From a virus (lineage: Duplodnaviria > Heunggongvirae > Uroviricota > Caudoviricetes): a stretch of DNA of 9,095 nucleotides. The notes beneath the pieces were generated by a model. The model saw nothing but the letters and a program-made list of their open reading frames with translations. It made no database searches and was not told where the DNA came from. Where the stretch lies: IMG/VR virus record IMGVR_UViG_2534681655_000016; one strand, written 5' to 3'. A program made the position numbers and the translations under genes. Of this stretch, positions 49-9,095 are shown in pieces. Positions within the stretch are counted from its first letter, which is position 1. Each line of letters opens with the position of its first letter.

Positions 49-570
49 ATGTCAAAGCCAAAATACCCTTTTGAAAAGCGCCTTGAAGTCGTGAATCACT
101 ACTTCACAACTGATGATGGTTACAGGATCATCTCGGCACGTTTTGGTGTCCCCCGAACCCAGGTCAGGACATGGGTTGCCCTCTATGAAAAACATGGAGA
201 AAAAGGTTTAATTCCCAAACCTAAAGGCGTTAGTGCTGATCCAGAGTTGCGTATTAAGGTCGTGAAAGCTGTGATCGAGCAGCACATGTCCCTTAATCAG
301 GCTGCTGCTCACTTTATGCTTGCTGGTAGTGGTTCTGTAGCCAGGTGGCTGAAGGTCTATGAAGAGCGCGGAGAAGCTGGTTTACGCGCGCTCAAGATTG
401 GCACCAAAAGAAACATTGCAATATCAGTTGATCCAGAAAAAGCGGCATCAGCATTGGAGCTGTCAAAAGACCGACGCATTGAGGATCTTGAAAGGCAAGT
501 TCGATTTCTTGAAACGCGGCTTATGTATCTAAAAAAGCTGAAAGCCTTAGCTCATCCCACGAAAAAGTGA
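49..570 (+). CDS. insJ: IS150 transposase OrfA (InsJ), helix-turn-helix DNA-binding protein
   Basis: 173-aa ORF starting at ATG 49. The translation MSKPKYPFEKRLEVVNHYF... matches recalled IS150 InsJ. It ends in the TGA at 568..570, overlapping the orfB start. Confidence 0.9.
   Translation: MSKPKYPFEKRLEVVNHYFTTDDGYRIISARFGVPRTQVRTWVALYEKHGEKGLIPKPKGVSADPELRIKVVKAVIEQHMSLNQAAAHFMLAGSGSVARWLKVYEERGEAGLRALKIGTKRNIAISVDPEKAASALELSKDRRIEDLERQVRFLETRLMYLKKLKALAHPTKK
531..537 (+). other. Programmed -1 ribosomal frameshift slippery heptamer A-AAA-AAG (orfA to orfB fusion site)
   Basis: The sequence aaaaaag at 531..537 is phased as A AAA AAG in the insJ reading frame, near the 3' end of orfA. This is the canonical IS3-family/IS150 frameshift motif. 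Confidence 0.6.
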
Positions 571-1417
571 AAGTACTCAACGAGCTAAGGCAGTTTTATC
601 CTCTTGATGAGCTTCTCAGGGCTGCGGAGATACCGCGCAGTACGTTTTATTATCATCTAAAGGCTCTCAGCAAGCCTGACAAGTATGCGGACGTTAAAAA
701 GCGTATTAGTGAGATTTATCACGAGAATAGAGGCCGATACGGATACCGTAGGGTAACGCTGTCTCTTCATCGAGAAGGGAAACAGATTAACCATAAAGCT
801 GTTCAGCGCCTGATGGGAACCCTCTCACTTAAAGCAGCGATTAAGGTCAAGCGATACCGCTCTTACAGAGGAGAGGTAGGGCAAACCGCCCCTAATGTTC
901 TCCAAAGAGATTTCAAGGCTACGCGGCCAAACGAGAAGTGGGTTACCGATGTTACTGAATTTGCAGTCAATGGGCGCAAGCTGTATTTGTCTCCAGTAAT
1001 AGATCTCTTCAACAACGAAGTTATTTCTTACAGCCTTTCGGAAAGACCAGTGATGAACATGGTTGAGAATATGCCGATCAGGCATTCAAAAAGCTTAATC
1101 CTCACGAGCATCCTGTTCTGCACTCTGACCAGGGATGGCAGTATCGTATGAGAAGATATCAAAATATCCTTAAAGAACATGGTATTAAACAAAGCATGTC
1201 CAGAAAAGGCAATTGTCTGGATAATGCTGTGGTGGAGTGTTTCTTTGGAACCTTAAAGTCGGAGTGTTTTTATCTTGATGAGTTCAGTAATATAAGCGAA
1301 CTGAAGGATGCTGTTACGGAATATATTGAATACTACAACAGCAGAAGAATTAGCCTGAAATTAAAAGGTCTGACTCCAATTGAATATCGGAATCAGACCT
1401 ATATGCCTCGTGTTTAA
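567..1417 (+). pseudogene. insK: IS150 transposase OrfB (InsK, DDE catalytic domain), disrupted by an apparent 1-bp deletion near 1074
   Basis: The ORF track splits the expected ~283-aa protein into 567..1151 and 1148..1417. The first piece ends ...[29 protein letters not shown], while the same DNA read one frame over gives ...[30 protein letters not shown], containing the conserved HSDQG motif. This is consistent with loss of one base between atgc and cgatcagg (1071..1080). It starts at GTG 567. Confidence 0.75.
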
Positions 1418-1443
1418 CTGTCCAACTTTTTGGGGTCAGTACA

Positions 1444-2385
1444 CTGGAAGGCTTTCATCCAGAAACAGTCAAAGTGGAAAACATGCAGCGGCAGATTGCG
1501 TTCCGCCATACCATCGATAAAGCTGTTTACCGTCGCTTCGTCGTAGTTGGTGGTAAATGAAGTGGTTAGCCACAGGCCGAAGGACCACGCGGGCGGCAGC
1601 GCCGGACGACCAGTAAAGCGGGTATAACGATCAAGTACCGCTTTCGGCGTCGGGCCGTCGATAACAAAGTATTCGAGATATTCACTCTCAACGCTGAACT
1701 GCACTTTGGAGACTTTCTCCGATCCCACTTCAAAAGAGACACACTGGGGATGATTGACCAGTACCCCATAACCACGGTTAGTCATGTAGAACGGGATATT
1801 TTTATACGCCTGTTCAGTACTTGTGCCGCCGTCCCGGTTCCAGGTCTCTACCGTCTGGCCATTGCGCACCAGGGCAGTAAAGCGCTCTCCCAGACCGTAA
1901 ACTGTTTCGCCAACGCCAAGATCAAGCCGCTCAAACATATAATTGCGTTGATTATTCGTGTCCTGCACGTAGCCATTATTTTTCACCTGACTACCGGTAA
2001 TACGTTCGCCGTTGCGCAGAAAATCCAGTGACCAGAACTCACCTTTGCTGACACGCGCGCTTAAGTTGCCACTTTTAAACTCAGCATAACGTTCTGTGTT
2101 TTCGATTGTGACCTTCACGTCCTGCAAAATATTGAGCGGGTAATGAGGACCGTTATTCAGCGCCCCCTGAAAATGCTCAATCCGCACACCGACAATACCT
2201 TCCTGTGGGGAGAAAAAGCGCAGCGTAAATAAAGGCGTGTCAAGCTGCCAGGTACGTTCACGTACATCACGGGGGGCAGCATAGACCACCATTTCATTAT
2301 CCTGCTGTTCAACCTCGAACACCTGAAGCGGGTGAATCAAATTGAGGCCAGGTTGAATCAACCAGTTTCCATCGCTAATTTTCAT
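1444..2385 (-). pseudogene. yicI: 5' fragment of alpha-xylosidase gene yicI (glycoside hydrolase family 31), truncated by the IS150 insertion
   Basis: The minus-strand ORF starts at ATG 2385 ([25 protein letters not shown]...) and matches the YicI N-terminus. After about 314 native codons the frame crosses the IS150 right end at 1443/1444 and terminates inside the IS (tail CTDPKKLDS*). Full-length YicI is about 772 aa, so the C-terminal part including the catalytic region is missing here. Confidence 0.85.
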
Positions 2386-2394
2386 TGCCGTTCC

Positions 2395-3777
2395 TTAGTT
2401 CTGCACTTCTTGAGAGGTGAATTGTTGCTGGCAACGGCGTTTACCCTGAGCCAGCTGTTCCATAACGGTTTTCAGATTGTGCGTCGTGAGTGAGTAGTAG
2501 CGTTTAGCGATAATCGCGCTCAGCAAATAACAGATCGCCGGAACAATCGTGAATAGCGCAATAATGATGCTAATCGTGGCGCTGTTCTGCGCTTTTTCTG
2601 CCGCATCATATCCGCCATAAGCCAGCATCCAGCCGATAAGAGCGCCGCCGAAGGCCAACCCCAGTTTGAGCACAAACAGCGTGCCAGCAAAACTGATCCC
2701 GGTCAGGCGTTTACCATTGCACCACTCGCCGTAGTCGACGGTATCGGACATCATTACCCACTGGATAGGTGTCACCAGTTGATGCAACACACCAATCACG
2801 AAGATGAAGACAAACATAGTGATGCTGGCCTGCATGGGAACAAAGAACATCGCGAGGCTAATCACTGCCAGCAGGGCGTTCGTCCACCAGAAGATAGTGA
2901 CTTTACATTTCCAGTCGGTCAGAGGTTTTGCCAGTGCGGAACCAATCAGGTTACCCACGCAATAAGTGGTGAGAAAAGCGACAAACACTTCCGGCGTGCC
3001 CAAAATCCATGTGACGTAATACATCATCGCCCCACCGCGTACGCACACCGCCAGGATATTGAAAATGGTTAGTAAACCGACAATCCGCCACTGGTCGTTT
3101 TGCCAGATATCACGTAAATCTTCCCGCATAGACGTTGTTGTAGGTGGTGCTTCAACGCGTTCTTTAGTGGTGAAGAAACAAAATGCCAGCATCATGAATG
3201 CCACCACGGAAAGGACCGCGATACCGCCCTGGAAACCGAGTGGTTTATTATCACCGCCAATTAAATTAACCAGTGGCATCATCAGAACAGTAGAAAGCAT
3301 GCCTCCCGCGGTCGCCAGCACAAAACGCCAGGATTGCAGCGAGATACGCTGAGTCGGGTCATTGGTGATTACACCACCCAATGCGCAGTAAGGGATATTG
3401 ACGACGGTATAAAGTAAGGTAAGTAGGGTGTAAGTAATTGCTGCATAGATCATTTTGCCGTTCATACTGAGATCTGGCGTGCTATAGGCCAGTACACAGA
3501 CGATCCCGAATGGCAGTGCGCCAAACAGTACCCACGGACGAAATTTACCCCAGCGAGAGCGCGTTCGATCGGCCAACAACCCCATGCAAGGATCGGAAAT
3601 CGCATCCAGTGCACGAGCGACCAAAAACATGGTTCCGACAAAACCGGCAGGAATGCCAAAAATATCGGTATAAAAGAACATCATATATAACATTACGTTA
3701 TCGAAAATAATGTGGCTGGCGGCGTCTCCCATGCCATAACCAATTTTCTCTTTAACGGACAACACTTCACTCTTCAT
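2395..3777 (-). CDS. yicJ: Sugar (glycoside-pentoside-hexuronide family):cation symporter, YicJ
   Basis: Long hydrophobic multi-TM ORF whose translation from MKSEVLSVKEKIGYGMGDAASHIIF... matches YicJ (460 aa). I chose ATG 3777, which has a GAGGAA ribosome-binding site 6-8 nt upstream, over the ORF-track start at 3834. Its stop lies 9 bp upstream of the yicI start, giving operon arrangement yicJ-yicI. Confidence 0.9.
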   Translation of the reverse strand: MKSEVLSVKEKIGYGMGDAASHIIFDNVMLYMMFFYTDIFGIPAGFVGTMFLVARALDAISDPCMGLLADRTRSRWGKFRPWVLFGALPFGIVCVLAYSTPDLSMNGKMIYAAITYTLLTLLYTVVNIPYCALGGVITNDPTQRISLQSWRFVLATAGGMLSTVLMMPLVNLIGGDNKPLGFQGGIAVLSVVAFMMLAFCFFTTKERVEAPPTTTSMREDLRDIWQNDQWRIVGLLTIFNILAVCVRGGAMMYYVTWILGTPEVFVAFLTTYCVGNLIGSALAKPLTDWKCKVTIFWWTNALLAVISLAMFFVPMQASITMFVFIFVIGVLHQLVTPIQWVMMSDTVDYGEWCNGKRLTGISFAGTLFVLKLGLAFGGALIGWMLAYGGYDAAEKAQNSATISIIIALFTIVPAICYLLSAIIAKRYYSLTTHNLKTVMEQLAQGKRRCQQQFTSQEVQN

Positions 3778-4032
3778 CTGCTTTTCCTCGATGCTATAGG
3801 GGTGCTGAGACCGATAACGCATTTTGTAAACCATCCCTGTGAGAGCGAATATTCCGATATCTGGTTATTAATTTATGATTCTTGTTTTATGTGATCGTGG
3901 TAGCGTTAATTCCGCTCATATATCATTGTAAAATATGGGTTTTATATGAACTATAATGCTTTCGTGATAATACGCTGCGTGTATTAGGCGGAAAAAACTG
4001 ATCTGGGGGATGTAGAAACTCAAGGAAGTAGC

Positions 4033-4069: not shown

Positions 4070-4164
4070 GGAAGATCGTCGTCTCCGGTGAGGCGGCTGG
4101 ACTTCAAATCCAGTTGGGGCCGCCAGCGGTCCCGGGCAGGTTCGACTCCTGTGATCTTCCGCCA
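4070..4164 (+). tRNA. selC: tRNA-Sec (selenocysteine tRNA, anticodon UCA), 95 nt, ending in CCA
   Basis: GGAAGATCGTCGTCTCCGGTGAGGCGGCTGGACTTCAAATCCAGTTGGGGCCGCCAGCGGTCCCGGGCAGGTTCGACTCCTGTGATCTTCCGCCA matches recalled E. coli selC. It has the long extra arm typical of tRNA-Sec and the anticodon TCA at 4104..4106. Confidence 0.92.
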
Positions 4165-4326
4165 AACCTCATCCAGCCAGTTCCGAGACACTCCATAAAA
4201 TCATTTATATTCAATGCGATGAATAATCAGCTTGTCCGTAATAGTCCGAGATCATCTCCCTGAATCCGCGAAAAATATGTATAGTAATGTGTATAGATTT
4301 TTTATACGTAGTTTTCAGTTATACAC

Positions 4327-5505
4327 ATGGCCCTAACCGATATACAGATCAAACGTGCAAAACCACAAGACAAACCATACACATTAAACGATGGGCAAGG
4401 TCTGTCATTGCTTATCAATCCCGATGGCTCGAAAGGCTGGCGTTTCCGTTTCCGGTTTGCAGGGAAAGCGCGGTTAATGTCATTTGGCAGCTACGATTTA
4501 GTAAGCCTCGCAGAAGCACGTGAGAAACGCGATACGGCTCGTAAGCAGGTAGCAAACGGCATTGATCCAGTAGCAGAGCGTAAGGCTCAGAAAATTGCTC
4601 AGAAATTATCAACTGAAAACTCTTTTGAGGCCGTTAGCAGAGAATGGCATGCAGCAAAAGCAGATCGCTGGACTTTAGCTTATCGCGAAGAAATTATTAA
4701 AACATTTGAACAGGATGTTTTTCCTTTCATTGGTAAACGGCCAATAGCTGAAATTAAACCCCTAGAACTGCTTGAAGTTCTTAAACGCATAGAAAAACGT
4801 GGAGCGTTGGAGAAAACCAGAAAAGTACGTCAACGATGCGGAGAGGTGTTTCGCTACGCGATCATCACTGGCCGCGCTGAATACAATCCAGCACCTGATT
4901 TAGCTATCGCATTAGCTGTACCGAAGCAAAAACATCATCCTTTTCTATCAGCAGAAGAACTCCCTCATTTTGTCAGAGATCTTGAGGCTTACACAGGTAG
5001 CATAATCACTAAAAATGCAACTAAAATTGTGATGCTTACTGGAGTCAGGACACAGGAAATGCGTTTTGCCACTTGGGACGAAATTGATTTACAAAAAAAG
5101 GTATGGGAAATACCGGCCGAACGAATGAAAATGCGCCGACCACATCTTGTACCACTCTCCACTCAAGTAGTTGAAATTTTTCAACAACTCAAGCTAATCA
5201 CCAAAAACTATCCATATATTTTTATCGGCCGTAATAATCACACTAAGCCAATTTCTAAAGAAAGTGTATCCCAAGTAATAGAATTACTTGGCTATAAAGG
5301 AAGAGCTACGGGCCACGGATTCCGCCATACAATGTCTACTATTTTGCATGAGTACGGATTTAACAGCGAATGGATAGAGTTACAATTGGCTCATGTTGAT
5401 AAGAATAGTATTCGAGGCACTTATAATCATGCCCAATATTTAGAAAAGAGAAGTTCTATGATGCAGTGGTACAGTGATTATATCCTTAATAGAGATAAAG
5501 CATAG
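4327..5505 (+). CDS. int: P4-type tyrosine recombinase/integrase (site-specific integrase of the selC-inserted satellite)
   Basis: 392-aa ORF starting 163 bp after the selC 3' end. The N-terminus (MALTDIQIKRAKPQDKPYTLNDGQGLSLLINPDGSKGWRFRFRF...) is the arm-binding region typical of P4-like integrases. The C-terminus carries catalytic-type residues in GHGFRHT, LAHV and RGTYNH (R...H..R..Y). Confidence 0.9.
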   Translation: MALTDIQIKRAKPQDKPYTLNDGQGLSLLINPDGSKGWRFRFRFAGKARLMSFGSYDLVSLAEAREKRDTARKQVANGIDPVAERKAQKIAQKLSTENSFEAVSREWHAAKADRWTLAYREEIIKTFEQDVFPFIGKRPIAEIKPLELLEVLKRIEKRGALEKTRKVRQRCGEVFRYAIITGRAEYNPAPDLAIALAVPKQKHHPFLSAEELPHFVRDLEAYTGSIITKNATKIVMLTGVRTQEMRFATWDEIDLQKKVWEIPAERMKMRRPHLVPLSTQVVEIFQQLKLITKNYPYIFIGRNNHTKPISKESVSQVIELLGYKGRATGHGFRHTMSTILHEYGFNSEWIELQLAHVDKNSIRGTYNHAQYLEKRSSMMQWYSDYILNRDKA

Positions 5506-5560
5506 AATAATAGAAGTTAATGCTGTATACTGTAAATTAACAATATAGTAAGGATTGAAA

Positions 5561-6427
5561 ATGAAGAAGACAGTACTTATAACTGATTTAGATAACACAC
5601 TATTCGACTGGTTTAGCGTTTGGTATCATAGCTTTAATGCAATGCTAAATAAAGTCGTTGAGATTTCCGGTTTTTCTAAAGACGAGCTTATTGCACAGAT
5701 AAAACCGATTCATCAAAAATATGGTACTGCCGAATACTCTTTTATTCTAGAAAGCATACCTCTTTTACAAGAAAAATATGGTGATAGAAACTCCATCAAT
5801 TTAGTTATGGATGATGCTATACACGCTTTCAGAAGTGAGAGAAAGAAATATCTTTCTCTGTACCCAACAGTAATGGACACTTTGAGTGTATTAAAAAGTA
5901 AAGGGTGTTATATTGTCGCGTATACTGAATCCAAAGCTTATTACTCCAATTTCCGCTTAACAAGATTAGGATTAGATGGTGTGATTGATGTCCTTTTCTC
6001 TCCTGAAGATCATGAAATCCCTGATGGTGAGAAAAAACAAGATAAATATAATCTAATGCTGACAAAGCAAGAATATACACCTATTGATGAAATTAAACCA
6101 AACCCACAACTTCTTCTGGACATAATAAAATCAATTGGTGCCACACCAGAAGAGTGTGTATATATAGGTGACAGTGAAATGAAAGATATAGAAATGGCCC
6201 AAAAAGCAAACGTATCAGATGTTTTTGCAAGCTATGGAACGAATCATTTTGAAGAGAACAAGGAGGGATATGAATTACTCCGTGCGGTAACCCACTGGAC
6301 TGATGCTGATGTTGAAAGGGAAAGAAAAATTAAAGAAAATGCCTTCGGAGCAAAACCCACATATGTAGCCAAACAATTTTCAGATATTTTGTCTTTTTTT
6401 GAATTTACCAAATTTAAAGGAAAATAG
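5561..6427 (+). CDS. HAD-superfamily (haloacid dehalogenase-like) hydrolase/phosphatase, cargo gene 1 of the satellite hotspot
   Basis: All four HAD motifs are present in order: motif I LITDLDNTLFDW (DxDxT), motif II IVAYTES, motif III conserved Lys in IKPNP, motif IV GDSEMKD (GDxxxD). There is a cap-like insertion between motifs I and II. An AAGGA ribosome-binding site lies 8 nt before ATG 5561; the ORF track's TTG at 5555 is less likely. The gene is very AT-rich compared with the flanks. Confidence 0.8.
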   Translation: MKKTVLITDLDNTLFDWFSVWYHSFNAMLNKVVEISGFSKDELIAQIKPIHQKYGTAEYSFILESIPLLQEKYGDRNSINLVMDDAIHAFRSERKKYLSLYPTVMDTLSVLKSKGCYIVAYTESKAYYSNFRLTRLGLDGVIDVLFSPEDHEIPDGEKKQDKYNLMLTKQEYTPIDEIKPNPQLLLDIIKSIGATPEECVYIGDSEMKDIEMAQKANVSDVFASYGTNHFEENKEGYELLRAVTHWTDADVERERKIKENAFGAKPTYVAKQFSDILSFFEFTKFKGK

Positions 6428-6428
6428 A

Positions 6429-7061
6429 ATGAACAATCTAGAATTAAAGAAACATGATGACGCTATAAAATTAGAAAATCTCAAGTTGAAAATTGATATC
6501 TGGAAGACAGTTGTTGACGTTCAGAAACATTTTAATGATCTTGAGATGAAGGTTAGAAACTTCGGAATTTTGATCTTGTCTGCATTTATTGGTGCAATTG
6601 GTGTAAGCTTTAATTCCGGCGCTGAATTTATAGCCTTTGGCAATCATTACTCTGTTGCTGCCATTCTTGCTTTCGGGGCATCTGTTGTTTGGTTGTTATT
6701 TTATTTTGTTGACGTTTACTGGTATCACCCATTACTTCTTGGAGCTGTAAAGAAAGGTTCAGAACTCGAAAAAGAAATTGCATCCGACATCCCAGGAATT
6801 AATCTTACAGAAACCATAGGAAAAAGTAGCCCAAAAGATATTTTGCTCTGGAAAAATATGCATAGTACTGGAAAAGCTAACCTTTTCTACTTTGGGGTTT
6901 TAGCTGTTCTGTTAACTATTTTTATTTCTCTACTGTGCTTTAAATCCCCGCAAAAGACAAATCAACTAAATGAATTAAATATTAAAGCAAATTGCACTAG
7001 AAACAGTAATTACAATGGAGTTAATTGCATTATCGCATCACAGCCAAGTGACAACAAATAG
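6429..7061 (+). CDS. Small membrane protein with a charged, coiled-coil-like N-terminal domain and three predicted transmembrane helices, cargo gene 2
   Basis: ATG 6429 lies 1 nt after the HAD stop (TAG 6425..6427), with an AAGGA ribosome-binding site inside the upstream gene's 3' end, suggesting translational coupling. The protein has three hydrophobic segments: FGILILSAFIGAIGVSF, YSVAAILAFGASVVWLLFYFVDVYWY and FYFGVLAVLLTIFISLLCF. The N-terminal ~45 aa are Lys/Glu-rich. No enzymatic motif was recognised. Confidence 0.75.
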   Translation: MNNLELKKHDDAIKLENLKLKIDIWKTVVDVQKHFNDLEMKVRNFGILILSAFIGAIGVSFNSGAEFIAFGNHYSVAAILAFGASVVWLLFYFVDVYWYHPLLLGAVKKGSELEKEIASDIPGINLTETIGKSSPKDILLWKNMHSTGKANLFYFGVLAVLLTIFISLLCFKSPQKTNQLNELNIKANCTRNSNYNGVNCIIASQPSDNK

Positions 7062-7151: not shown

Positions 7152-7170
7152 GTGCTTTCCCCGCCTCGCC
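7152..7170 (-). other. cos: P2/P4-type cos site (19-nt cohesive-end sequence GGCGAGGCGGGGAAAGCAC) with flanking 7-bp inverted repeats
   Basis: The plus strand reads GTGCTTTCCCCGCCTCGCC, the exact reverse complement of the recalled P2/P4 cohesive end. It is flanked by inverted repeats GCGGGCG (7145..7151) and CGCCCGC (7171..7177). Its position downstream of psu matches the P4 genome map. Confidence 0.7.
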
Positions 7171-7271
7171 CGCCCGCTTTGCGGGGCGGTTTTAATGCAG
7201 TTGCACTGACACGCTCAGGCCGCGCCGGGAATGGCGCGGTCTGCAGAAAATGAGGCAGGAAAACGCATGCA

Positions 7272-7334: not shown

Positions 7335-7907
7335 TTACACAGACTGACGTGATGCCAGTTGCGCACTTTTACGCGAAAAAATCATGTTCTGCGCAGGGGT
7401 GAATTTTTCACGGCTGTCATCCACCGAAGCCGCGTCAGGCCTGAATCCGATGGTCGTTAAAATGTCGCTATCCTGTGCGGAATAATTAATTTTTTCCCCC
7501 TTCGCAAGCCAGGACAGAAGGGCTTCACGCAGGGCATCTGTGGCACGCTGTATGGCACAGTTTCGGGCAATGGCCGTCAGCTCACTGTAGCCCATCAGCT
7601 CCGGTGCCAGTGCCGCCGCCAGTGCTGTGCCGTGCTGCTGCATAAAATCATTCAGCCGGTCGCGGATGCTGATGTGCTGAACGGCTTCATGCGAACGAAT
7701 ATAACGACCGGCAGCCTGATTCACCTGCCATTTTCTGACTTCGATAATATTGCGTAATTCGTCCAGGCGACTGACGTTTCTGCCTTCCCCGGACAGAAGC
7801 CGCAGATATTCCTGTTCGGCCGCAGCCAGCTCATTTTTGCGTTGCAGCCATGCTGCTTTGTTATTCTGACAGGTGTCAAAGGCCTGCTGTAAGGCTGTGC
7901 TTTCCAT
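7335..7907 (-). CDS. psu: P4 Psu (polarity suppression / capsid decoration protein)
   Basis: 190-aa ORF whose length and sequence (MESTALQQAFDTCQNNKAAWLQRKNELAAAEQEYLRLL...) match recalled phage P4 Psu. It is the last gene of the sid-delta-psu late operon. Confidence 0.88.
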   Translation of the reverse strand: MESTALQQAFDTCQNNKAAWLQRKNELAAAEQEYLRLLSGEGRNVSRLDELRNIIEVRKWQVNQAAGRYIRSHEAVQHISIRDRLNDFMQQHGTALAAALAPELMGYSELTAIARNCAIQRATDALREALLSWLAKGEKINYSAQDSDILTTIGFRPDAASVDDSREKFTPAQNMIFSRKSAQLASRQSV

Positions 7908-7980: not shown

Positions 7981-8481
7981 TCATTCCAGACGCAGCGAAT
8001 ATGATTGTGTTTTTAACCGTACTGGCGGCAGTTCCTGTTTTTCATGCAGGCGTTCTGCCAGTTCGTCCGGTGTGACCGGGCGGACAATGAAGCGGTTGAT
8101 GGTCTGAAGCGTTTTAAACACCAGACCACAGCCCGGATCCGTGCACACATAAAAACGTTCGGTGACTTCCTGAGACAGACGCCGCGATGTTCTTGACAGT
8201 GCAAGGCCTTTACATCTCCGACAACAATATCCGGTAACAAGCATTCTTTTCGGGCGTTTCATACTGCCGGAGGCAGAAGTCAGTGAATCGCGGTATCTCT
8301 GTTTGCCTGAAATGTATTCCATTCCTGAATCTTTACAGTCAGAGAAAAAGCTTTCACTCGCTTCAAATGTCGCAGAGCAATAAATATTCCGGCACTGTGC
8401 AATCATTATCTTGGTGCCATCGTCCATGAAATGTGCGCGGCGGGTGTGAGCAACATGTCCACACGACGGGCAGTAAATCAT
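7981..8481 (-). CDS. delta: P4 Delta (Ogr-like tandem zinc-finger late-gene transcriptional activator)
   Basis: 166-aa ORF with two Cys-rich Ogr-like repeats (CPSCGHVAHTRR...C...C and C..C......CTDPGCG). Its size matches P4 delta. The ATG overlaps the sid stop in an ATGA arrangement at 8478..8481. Confidence 0.88.
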   Translation of the reverse strand: MIYCPSCGHVAHTRRAHFMDDGTKIMIAQCRNIYCSATFEASESFFSDCKDSGMEYISGKQRYRDSLTSASGSMKRPKRMLVTGYCCRRCKGLALSRTSRRLSQEVTERFYVCTDPGCGLVFKTLQTINRFIVRPVTPDELAERLHEKQELPPVRLKTQSYSLRLE

Positions 8482-9095
8482 GACAGCAGTCCTCTGGCCT
8501 TAAGCTCTGCACCCTGCTGGTCTATTTTGTCCTGCCACACCTTGCGCTGTGCCGGTGTGCCTGCCACCTCATAATCCATGTGCGGGAGTGTTGCCGCTGA
8601 CAGTCCGGTCAGCCGGAGAACCGGCTCGCCGGTGAGGCTGATTTGCATCTGTTTTATTTTCTGTTCCAGCGATGATTTCACCTGCTGCATGACAGCTTTA
8701 TCGGGTGCGACGTAGCCCTGATGCCCGGTGGTGTTGGCGAGCGGATTTTCCTGTACCAGAATGCTCAGATGCATTGCCCGGACAAGCGCCTCACAGGTTT
8801 CATTCAGGGCGTGTTCCAGCTCATGCTCTGCATACAGACTCAGAGGTGATGATGTGCCTTCCGGTAGGCGGTGGCCGTGCTGTCACACGCCCCTTTCAGG
8901 CGTTCACGTTCGAAATTCAGCACCACGGCCAGATTGTCATATTCCTGTACCAGCTCCCGGCGTGCCACGCGCTCAATGTGGCGCTGTTTCAGCTCGTCGC
9001 TCAGGACACCACCGGCTGCACGAAAGGCCGTGCGCCAGTCGTCAGCGTCGTTTCCGTCGGCCTGCGCCAGCGCATTTTTTTCCTGCTCTGCCCGT
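8478..9095 (-). pseudogene. sid: P4 Sid (capsid size-determination external scaffold), apparently frameshifted; the 5' end lies beyond the window
   Basis: The C-terminal part is in the frame ending at TGA 8478..8480 and is open back to a stop at 8883..8885. The N-terminal part (RAEQEKNALAQADGNDADDWRTAFRAAGGVLSDELKQRHIERVARRELVQEYDNLAVVLNFERERLKGACDSTATAYRKAHHHL*) is in a different frame, running from the window edge to a TGA at 8840..8842. The two frames overlap at 8843..8882 and their combined length fits the ~244-aa Sid, implying a 1-bp indel there. Confidence 0.7.

What the first reader, a model, noticed from the sequence alone, without database searches (positions are those of the whole stretch)
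5561..7061. Candidate two-gene anti-phage system (HAD-family hydrolase + 3-TM membrane protein) in the P4-satellite defence hotspot next to the integrase
Seen in sequence: two co-oriented genes lie between the satellite integrase and cos/psu, with a 1-nt gap between them (likely translational coupling) and strikingly low GC compared with both flanks. Established knowledge: in phage P4 this interval holds gop/beta/cII, and in P4-like satellites it is a variable hotspot that carries diverse anti-phage systems. From memory, a hydrolase + 3TM pair has been reported from this kind of hotspot, but I cannot confirm that this pair is homologous to it. Inference: the pair is an immunity or abortive-infection module, with the hydrolase as the enzymatic component and the membrane protein as the effector or anchor. 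How such a module would work is not deducible from the sequence.
Basis: partly seen in the sequence, partly recalled or inferred. Interest (0 to 1): 0.85.

Follow-up and report, generated by a model that had tools for sequence, protein, structure and literature searches.

The report
Known anti-phage pair: type II Metis
The two genes are real, but they are the "Hydrolase + 3TM" anti-phage system of P4-like satellites, already tested in 2022 with identical protein sequences and since renamed type II Metis (MisB-MisC), so this is a correct but ordinary re-discovery.

Summary
Two co-oriented genes (5561-6427 and 6429-7061, TAG-A-ATG junction, GC 0.34) lie between a tyrosine integrase next to tRNA-Sec and the P4 cos site and psu.

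The pair is not new. Both proteins are 100% identical in amino acid sequence to the "Hydrolase + 3TM" system cloned from E. coli 2862600 (plasmid pFR97) by Rousset et al. 2022. That clone, on its native promoter, protected E. coli against phage T7. Both proteins hit the PADLOC models full length (654 and 462 bits).

A 2025 preprint (Osterman et al.) lists this exact pair as MisB-MisC, type II Metis. In its model MisC, a three-helix membrane protein, binds N6-methyl-dAMP, which is released when a lytic phage degrades Dam-methylated host DNA. MisC then kills the cell, probably as an octameric pore. MisB, a HAD phosphatase, removes basal m6dAMP and so prevents self-toxicity.

That mechanism was shown for a Phyllobacterium homologue that is 32-37% identical. 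Applying it to this E. coli pair is inference. It is supported by conserved pocket residues, including L103, the equivalent of the mutated L110.

In 69 of 80 loci from many phyla, a MisB homologue sits directly upstream of the MisC relative.

Novelty: already known. Interest: low.

The parts
5561..6427 (+). misB: HAD-family phosphatase, 288 aa. Motif I is D9-L-D11-N-T13. In the Metis model it is the guard that dephosphorylates basal m6dAMP.
   Evidence: Pfam HAD_2, Hydrolase and Hydrolase_like. PADLOC PDLC03008 'Hydrolase', 654 bits, positions 1-288 of 288. 100% identical to pFR97 protein 1 and to IMG 2534901412. 36.6% identical to Phyllobacterium MisB and 39.6% to type I MisB of E. coli 402837, with DLDNT, TES, KPNP and GDS motifs conserved.
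6429..7061 (+). misC: 210-aa membrane protein with three transmembrane helices (about residues 45-63, 76-98 and 149-170). It is the predicted m6dAMP sensor and membrane-disrupting effector.
   Evidence: PADLOC PDLC03009 'Hydrolase-TM', 462 bits, positions 1-210 of 210. 100% identical to pFR97 protein 2 and to IMG 2534901413. Three hydropathy peaks. AlphaFold2 model with pLDDT 78.7. Invariant residues W25, K26, Q32, H34, F35, N36, R43, D95, W98, Y99, H100, L102, L103, G105, V107 and E114. L103 aligns with Phyllobacterium L110.
5506..5560 (+). Upstream non-coding region with the misB ribosome-binding site (AAGGA at 5551-5555). It lies inside the 150 nt of upstream sequence that drove expression in the published native-promoter clone.
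   Evidence: The first 399 nt of the pFR97 insert equal window 5411-5809 exactly. The simple sigma-70 scan found no + strand consensus promoter here. A candidate -10 hexamer TATACT at 5526-5531 was seen by eye only.
7152..7170 (-). P2/P4 cos cohesive-end sequence GGCGAGGCGGGGAAAGCAC. It marks the right-hand border of the hotspot.
   Evidence: Exact match, with 0 expected by chance. Similarity to P4 begins at 7171, which corresponds to the end of the P4 genome. An adjacent G+C-rich hairpin followed by a T run at 7170-7189 could terminate the operon.
4327..5505 (+). Satellite tyrosine integrase, the left-hand border of the hotspot (context).
   Evidence: Pfam Arm-DNA-bind_3, Phage_int_M and Phage_integrase. 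No megablast match to P4 int.
4070..4164 (+). tRNA-Sec (selC), the integration site of the satellite (context).
   Evidence: ARAGORN. The same arrangement is seen in E. coli E6.
7335..7907 (-). psu of the P4-like satellite (context).
   Evidence: Pfam Psu, 1.3e-88. 98.5% DNA identity to P4.

Best explanation
The pair is the misB-misC operon, that is type II Metis, first described as 'Hydrolase + 3TM' (Rst_Hydrolase-3Tm). It is carried as cargo in the int-cos hotspot of a P4-like satellite integrated at selC.

Proposed mechanism:
- In uninfected cells, traces of N6-methyl-dAMP (m6dAMP) arise from repair of Dam-methylated DNA. MisB, a Mg-dependent HAD phosphatase, dephosphorylates them to inert m6dA.
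- When a lytic phage such as T7 degrades the host chromosome to mononucleotides, m6dAMP rises about 100-fold and exceeds what MisB can remove.
- m6dAMP then binds a conserved cytoplasmic pocket of MisC, formed by the N-terminal helix and the cytosolic end of TM2.
- MisC compromises the membrane, probably as an octameric pore. This aborts the infection before progeny are made.

What is shown: the identity of the genes, and T7 protection by proteins of this exact amino-acid sequence.

What is shown only in homologues: dependence on Dam, toxicity of added m6dAMP, loss of defence in MisC L110A, dispensability of MisB catalysis for defence (all in the Phyllobacterium system), and MisB phosphatase activity on m6dAMP (in type I MisB).

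What is inferred: that the same trigger and the same pore mechanism operate in this E. coli pair.
For: Both proteins are 100% identical to the pFR97 proteins, and 399 nt of the insert match exactly. That clone specifically inhibits T7.

The same two sequences form row 1 of the MisB-homologue table of the Metis preprint, with a 3-helix TM neighbour. The preprint names the E. coli 2862600 operon as a MisC/MisB homologue.

PADLOC gives full-length hits of 654 and 462 bits. RefSeq annotates the same genes as misB and misC in E. coli E6, in the same selC/P4-like context.

The published mechanism is read.

Conservation supports transfer of the mechanism. MisC is 32% identical to Phyllobacterium MisC. 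The functionally essential L110 aligns with L103, which is invariant in 21 of 21 and 80 of 80 homologues, and the surrounding HFND and D..WYH.LL.G.V motifs are also invariant. The catalytic D9 and D11 of MisB are conserved.

The pair is conserved across phyla: 69 of 80 loci with a MisC relative have a MisB homologue immediately upstream on the same strand.

The predicted topology (N-terminus inside, three TM helices) puts the conserved residues on the cytoplasmic side.
Against: No experiment on this E. coli pair has tested Dam dependence, m6dAMP binding or membrane damage. The mechanistic work used a homologue only 32-37% identical.

The reported host range of the identical clone is T7 only. 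T4 also degrades host DNA and is blocked by type I Metis, yet it was not blocked. This could mean a different trigger. It is confounded by temperature, however: T7 was assayed at room temperature and T4 at 37 C, while type II Metis is assayed at 25 C.

The pore is an AlphaFold3 prediction in a preprint (ipTM 0.74), not an observation.

The preprint's supplementary table is internally inconsistent about which type II sequence was synthesised.
Confidence: 0.85

Rival explanations
1. The pair is a defence system, but the E. coli variant senses a signal other than m6dAMP. Candidates are another nucleotide-degradation product or a T7-specific cue. The Metis trigger would then not transfer to it.
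For: The identical clone protected only against T7 out of eight phages, including T4. It is only 32% (MisC) and 37% (MisB) identical to the characterised Phyllobacterium proteins. Enterobacterial MisC proteins carry an extra C-terminal Cys-pair hairpin that distant homologues lack.
Against: The residues of the predicted pocket are invariant across the family, including the essential leucine. The T7-only range is confounded by assay temperature. MisB clusters with m6dAMP phosphatases of both Metis types at 37-40% identity, with the same motifs.
Confidence: 0.1
2. The pair is mainly an addiction (toxin-antitoxin-like) module that stabilises the satellite. MisC would be the toxin and MisB an enzymatic antitoxin, with phage defence as a side effect.
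For: In the homologue, MisB's role is to prevent MisC toxicity and it is dispensable for defence. The neighbouring P4 cargo gop-beta is thought to be toxin-antitoxin-like. The 1-nt gap fits tightly coupled expression.
Against: Defence against T7 was measured directly for this sequence, on a plasmid outside any satellite. A clade of MisC-like genes exists with no MisB at all, which is hard to reconcile with an obligate toxin-antitoxin pair. The two readings are not mutually exclusive.
Confidence: 0.04
3. The pair is a housekeeping phosphatase with an unrelated membrane protein, carried by chance, with no defence role.
For: MisB gives only generic HAD and phosphoglycolate-phosphatase-like matches in Pfam, NCBIfam and PDB. 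MisC has no Pfam or NCBIfam family.
Against: There is published phage protection for the identical sequence. The pair sits in a mobile hotspot, has atypically low GC, and occurs in only 8 of 5426 complete E. coli genomes. The gene order is strictly conserved in 69 of 80 loci from unrelated phyla.
Confidence: 0.01

Closest known systems
'Hydrolase + 3TM' system, plasmid pFR97, from a P4-like satellite of E. coli 2862600 (Rousset et al. 2022, Cell Host Microbe, PMC9122126). In PADLOC these are models PDLC03008 and PDLC03009. From my own memory, the DefenseFinder name is Rst_Hydrolase-3Tm.
   Same: Both proteins are identical (288 of 288 and 210 of 210 residues). The upstream DNA is identical over the 399 nt available. 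The hotspot is the same, between int and cos.
   Different: Nothing detectable in the system itself. Whether the window comes from the same strain is unknown. The 8 complete genomes that carry the system differ from the window at 0.1-0.3% of bases.
Type II Metis (MisB-MisC) of Phyllobacterium sp. UNC302MFCol5.2 (Osterman et al. 2025, bioRxiv 10.1101/2025.11.05.686725).
   Same: Same two-gene architecture: a HAD phosphatase plus a 3-TM protein. The catalytic aspartates and the pocket motifs are conserved, including L110, which aligns with L103. The authors place it in the same family.
   Different: Identity is only 32% (MisC) and 37% (MisB). The E. coli MisC has a Cys-pair C-terminal tail in place of the Phyllobacterium tail. 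Dam dependence, m6dAMP toxicity and the mutants were reported for the Phyllobacterium system, not for this one.
Type I Metis (MisA-MisB), for example E. coli 401675, 402837 and E308. The untested-positive 'Phosphoesterase + HAD' pFR96 of Rousset 2022 has the same architecture.
   Same: A homologous MisB guard phosphatase (39.6% identity to 402837 MisB). The same trigger logic. It is also found in P4 hotspots.
   Different: The effector is MisA, a soluble PUA-like domain plus calcineurin-like NAD+ diphosphatase. No such gene is in the window. Here the effector is a membrane protein.
Nucleotide-activated membrane effectors of other abortive-infection systems, such as the transmembrane effectors of CBASS, Pycsar and Thoeris. 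This comparison rests on general knowledge and on their citation in PMC9122126.
   Same: A small nucleotide ligand activates a membrane-spanning protein that kills the infected cell.
   Different: Those ligands are second messengers made by a dedicated cyclase or TIR enzyme after phage sensing. Here the ligand is a breakdown product of host DNA, and the partner enzyme destroys it rather than making it. MisC has no sequence or fold similarity to any solved structure.

Membership tests
Hydrolase + 3TM / type II Metis (MisB-MisC) | Sequence match to the reference proteins and models | tested here: met
   100% amino-acid identity to pFR97 proteins 1 and 2 and to IMG 2534901412 and 2534901413. Full-length PADLOC hits of 654 and 462 bits.
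Hydrolase + 3TM / type II Metis (MisB-MisC) | MisB is a HAD-superfamily phosphatase with the two catalytic aspartates of motif I | tested here: met
   Pfam HAD_2, Hydrolase and Hydrolase_like above their cut-offs. D9-L-D11-N-T aligns with D9/D11 of Phyllobacterium MisB and with DLDNT of type I MisB.
Hydrolase + 3TM / type II Metis (MisB-MisC) | The partner has three transmembrane helices and no annotated domain | tested here: met
   Three Kyte-Doolittle peaks. AlphaFold2 helices span 45-63, 76-98 and 149-170. No Pfam or NCBIfam hit. Phobius and TMHMM gave '3 TM' in both papers.
Hydrolase + 3TM / type II Metis (MisB-MisC) | The two genes are adjacent, co-oriented and conserved as a pair | tested here: met
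   1-nt gap in the window. In 69 of 80 loci from many phyla a MisB homologue lies immediately upstream of the MisC relative on the same strand.
Hydrolase + 3TM / type II Metis (MisB-MisC) | Conserved cytoplasmic ligand pocket in MisC, including the leucine whose mutation abolishes defence | tested here: met
   Phyllobacterium L110 aligns with E. coli L103. L103 and the HFND and D..WYH.LL.G.V motifs are invariant. The pocket geometry itself was not modelled with a ligand here.
Hydrolase + 3TM / type II Metis (MisB-MisC) | Confers anti-phage protection | not testable with these tools
   Published for the identical sequence: specific inhibition of T7 from a low-copy plasmid with the native promoter (PMC9122126).
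Hydrolase + 3TM / type II Metis (MisB-MisC) | Activation depends on host Dam methylation, phage-driven host DNA degradation and m6dAMP | not testable with these tools
   Reported for the Phyllobacterium homologue only. No such data exist for the E. coli 2862600 pair. The supplementary table is ambiguous about which sequence was synthesised.
Type I Metis (MisA-MisB) | MisB is paired with a PUA-like domain plus calcineurin-like phosphoesterase (PF00149), MisA | tested here: not met
   No such ORF lies next to misB. The only neighbour in the operon is the 3-TM protein.
P4-like satellite defence hotspot (Rousset 2022) | The cargo lies between the satellite integrase and cos/psu of a P4-like element | tested here: met
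   Integrase at 4327-5505, exact cos at 7152-7170, and psu, delta and sid 98.5% identical to P4. P4 itself carries gop-beta-cII at this position.

The most novel reading that the evidence does not exclude
The most novel reading still open concerns the E. coli satellite-borne MisB-MisC. It might not simply copy the Phyllobacterium system but respond to a different or narrower cue. It could, for example, be truly T7-specific or cold-active, with the enterobacterial Cys-pair periplasmic tail of MisC playing a role.

Separately, the roughly 165-aa MisC-like clade that lacks any MisB would be a stand-alone, single-gene sensor of host-genome degradation that needs no guard phosphatase.
Probability: 0.12. 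Interest if true: 0.4.

Novelty: already known. Interest (0 to 1): 0.1.

Why it matters
The value for the scan is calibration. From raw sequence the first-stage reader correctly spotted a genuine defence system in a satellite hotspot, but the system is already catalogued, experimentally validated and mechanistically explained.

Three residual points are of modest value:
- The m6dAMP mechanism has not been demonstrated on this E. coli pair.
- Its 'T7-only' range may be an artefact of assay temperature.
- A MisB-less MisC-like clade exists that the MisB-seeded survey could not have found.

Tried and rejected
- Pfam and NCBIfam searches for MisC gave nothing.
- A PDB profile search with the MisC alignment gave no hit at E <= 1.
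- Foldseek of the AlphaFold2 MisC model against PDB gave a best E of 0.34, all generic long-helix proteins, so there is no informative structural relative.
- MisB against PDB gave only generic HAD and phosphoglycolate-phosphatase matches (E >= 6e-5, C-terminal motif only), which says nothing about substrate.
- The consensus promoter scan found no + strand sigma-70 site upstream of misB, so I do not claim a promoter position.
- A literature search for later Metis or m6dAMP papers found only the one preprint.
- The housekeeping-operon reading was rejected because of the published assays and the mobile, patchy distribution of the pair.
- Type I Metis membership was rejected because there is no MisA.
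- I could not decide whether the window is strain 2862600 itself.

Full report
**1. What is in the sequence**

The window is a piece of E. coli chromosome. In order it holds:
- an IS150 copy at 49-1417, inserted into yicI;
- the remnant of yicI at 1414-2385 (-);
- yicJ at 2395-3834 (-);
- tRNA-Sec at 4070-4164;
- the left arm of a P4-like satellite.

The satellite arm runs as follows:
- a tyrosine integrase at 4327-5505;
- the two genes of the finding at 5561-6427 and 6429-7061;
- the exact 19-nt P2/P4 cos sequence at 7152-7170;
- psu, delta and sid on the minus strand.

From 7171 to the end of the window the DNA is 98.5% identical to the right end of phage P4.

- The genes are co-oriented and the junction reads TAG-A-ATG.
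- AGGA-type ribosome-binding sites precede both ATGs.
- GC is 0.34 for the cargo, 0.42 for int and 0.53 for psu.
- The first protein is a HAD hydrolase by Pfam.
- The second has three hydrophobic helices.

**2. What it is**

PADLOC gives full-length, very strong hits for both proteins: PDLC03008 'Hydrolase' at 654 bits over 1-288 of 288, and PDLC03009 'Hydrolase-TM' at 462 bits over 1-210 of 210.

Rousset et al. 2022 (PMC9122126) cloned 'Hydrolase + 3TM' as pFR97 from a P4-like satellite of E. coli 2862600. [quoted passage not shown] Comparing their Table S2A with the window shows the following:
- both proteins are 100% identical (288 and 210 residues);
- the 399 nt of insert printed there equal window 5411-5809 exactly.

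The same two sequences form the first row of Supplementary Table 1 of Osterman et al. 2025 (bioRxiv 10.1101/2025.11.05.686725). That preprint names the HAD protein MisB and the 3-TM protein MisC, and calls the pair type II Metis. It cites the 2862600 operon as a homologue.

RefSeq already labels the genes misB and misC in E. coli E6, where they sit in the same selC/P4-like context. Only 8 of 5426 complete E. coli genomes carry the locus, all at 99.7% identity or more.

**3. How it most likely works**

This section is read from the preprint.
- Lytic phages degrade the Dam-methylated host chromosome to mononucleotides, so m6dAMP rises about 100-fold.
- In type II Metis, the defence needs Dam.
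- It is escaped by T6 denA mutants.
- MisC L110A abolishes defence, whereas MisB D9N does not.
- AlphaFold3 places m6dAMP in an intracellular pocket of MisC and predicts an octameric ring.
- MisB of type I Metis dephosphorylates m6dAMP to m6dA in vitro and removes basal m6dAMP in vivo.

So MisC is both sensor and effector, and MisB is a guard against self-toxicity.

These experiments were done on a Phyllobacterium pair and on type I systems. I therefore tested how well the mechanism transfers to the window's pair:
- E. coli MisC is 32% identical to Phyllobacterium MisC over 150 columns.
- MisB is 36.6% identical to Phyllobacterium MisB and 39.6% identical to a type I MisB.
- Phyllobacterium L110 aligns with E. 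coli L103. This residue is invariant in a 21-sequence alignment and in 80 further homologues.
- Also invariant are W25, Q32, H34-F35-N36, R43, D95, W98-Y99-H100, L102, G105, V107 and E114.
- An AlphaFold2 model (pLDDT 78.7), read with the positive-inside rule, puts these residues on the cytoplasmic side. They lie on the N-terminal helix and the extension of TM2, which agrees with an intracellular pocket. The topology is my inference.

The pair is strongly conserved. Among 80 genomic loci from Proteobacteria, Acidobacteriota, Actinomycetota, Bacteroidota, Planctomycetota and others that encode a MisC relative, 69 have a MisB homologue directly upstream on the same strand.

**4. Caveats and rival readings**

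No Dam, m6dAMP or membrane experiment has been reported for this E. coli pair.

Its published range is T7 only, although T4 was also in the panel. There is a confound, however. Rousset et al. incubated the T7 plates at room temperature and the plates for all other phages at 37 C. The preprint assays type II Metis at 25 C and type I at 37 C. The narrow range may therefore reflect temperature rather than specificity. This is my inference.

A different trigger remains possible (about 0.1). A primarily addictive, toxin-antitoxin-like role is conceivable and is not exclusive of defence. A housekeeping role is excluded in practice.

**5. Comparison with what is known, and novelty**

All family features that can be tested with sequence tools are met. 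The functional features are published, either for the identical sequence (defence) or for homologues (trigger).

The pair is not type I Metis, because there is no MisA. MisC has no sequence or fold relative among solved structures.

The verdict is 'already known'. Interest is low.

**6. Side observations**

- sid carries a 1-nt deletion relative to P4.
- The IS150 orfB is split, and the element interrupts yicI.
- A clade of MisC-like genes of about 165 aa keeps the pocket residues but lacks any MisB within 4 kb.
- The preprint's Supplementary Table 3 prints the E. coli 2862600 misB DNA in the row labelled Phyllobacterium. It also lists plasmid 'Metis 2862600' for two strains that are labelled as carrying the Phyllobacterium system.

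Noticed in passing
window 8478-9095 (-), indel at about 8843/8844: The satellite's sid gene has a 1-nt deletion relative to phage P4. The Sid reading frame breaks after ...AYRKAHHHL, and the two halves appear as ORFs 8840-8968 and 8478-8774. It is either a sid pseudogene, so the satellite could not redirect capsid size, or an assembly error.
   Followed up: partly
window 49-1417 (+) and 1414-2385 (-): An IS150 copy interrupts yicI (alpha-xylosidase), of which only 323 codons remain. The IS150 orfB is itself split into two ORFs (567-1151 and 1148-1417), with the rve domain divided between them, so it carries a frameshift. Only one complete E. coli genome (strain 510016, NZ_CP025851.1) has the same IS150/yicI junction, and it does not carry misBC.
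   Followed up: partly
window 4070-5505: The P4-like satellite sits at tRNA-Sec (selC). Its integrase has no megablast-level similarity to P4 int, although psu, delta and sid are 98.5% identical to P4. The element is thus a mosaic: a P4 right arm with a different integration module.
   Followed up: partly
loci L025, L028, L033, L047, L052, L054, L055, L060, L062 (MisC-like ORF near 4001 in most): A coherent clade of shorter MisC-like proteins (137-188 aa, motif VDVQMHFNDLCLRIRSF) keeps all the predicted pocket residues. It has no MisB homologue within about 4 kb and no constant neighbour. Several sit beside integrases or transposases. L055 and L062 have too little upstream DNA to judge on their own. 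The Metis survey was seeded from MisB and so could not have found these genes. They may be single-gene versions of the system.
   Followed up: partly
bioRxiv 10.1101/2025.11.05.686725, Supplementary Table 3, compared with window 5561-5959: The 'synthesized sequence' printed for 'Phyllobacterium sp. UNC302MFCol5.2, type II Metis' is, over the 399 nt shown, identical to the window's misB, that is to E. coli 2862600. Strains 521 and 522, labelled as carrying the Phyllobacterium system, list plasmid 'Metis 2862600'. The mutant name MisC L110A fits the Phyllobacterium numbering, since E. coli residue 110 is Gly. A clerical mix-up is therefore likely but not certain.
   Followed up: partly
PMC9122126 methods compared with the bioRxiv methods (no window coordinates): The 'T7-specific' phenotype of the identical clone may be confounded by temperature. 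T7 was the only phage plated at room temperature and the other seven were plated at 37 C, while type II Metis is assayed at 25 C in the preprint.
   Followed up: no
window 6978-7058 (MisC residues about 184-210): Enterobacterial MisC proteins share a C-terminal C-x-R-x2-N-[YF]-[DN]-[GT]-x2-C motif, predicted to be a beta-hairpin on the periplasmic side (pLDDT about 57-61). It is absent from the Vibrio, Alteromonadales and distant homologues, which have unrelated tails. Its function is unknown.
   Followed up: no
window 5561-5600: Counted from the ATG at 5561, the HAD motif-I aspartates are D9 and D11, which match the D9N mutant of the preprint.
   Followed up: yes
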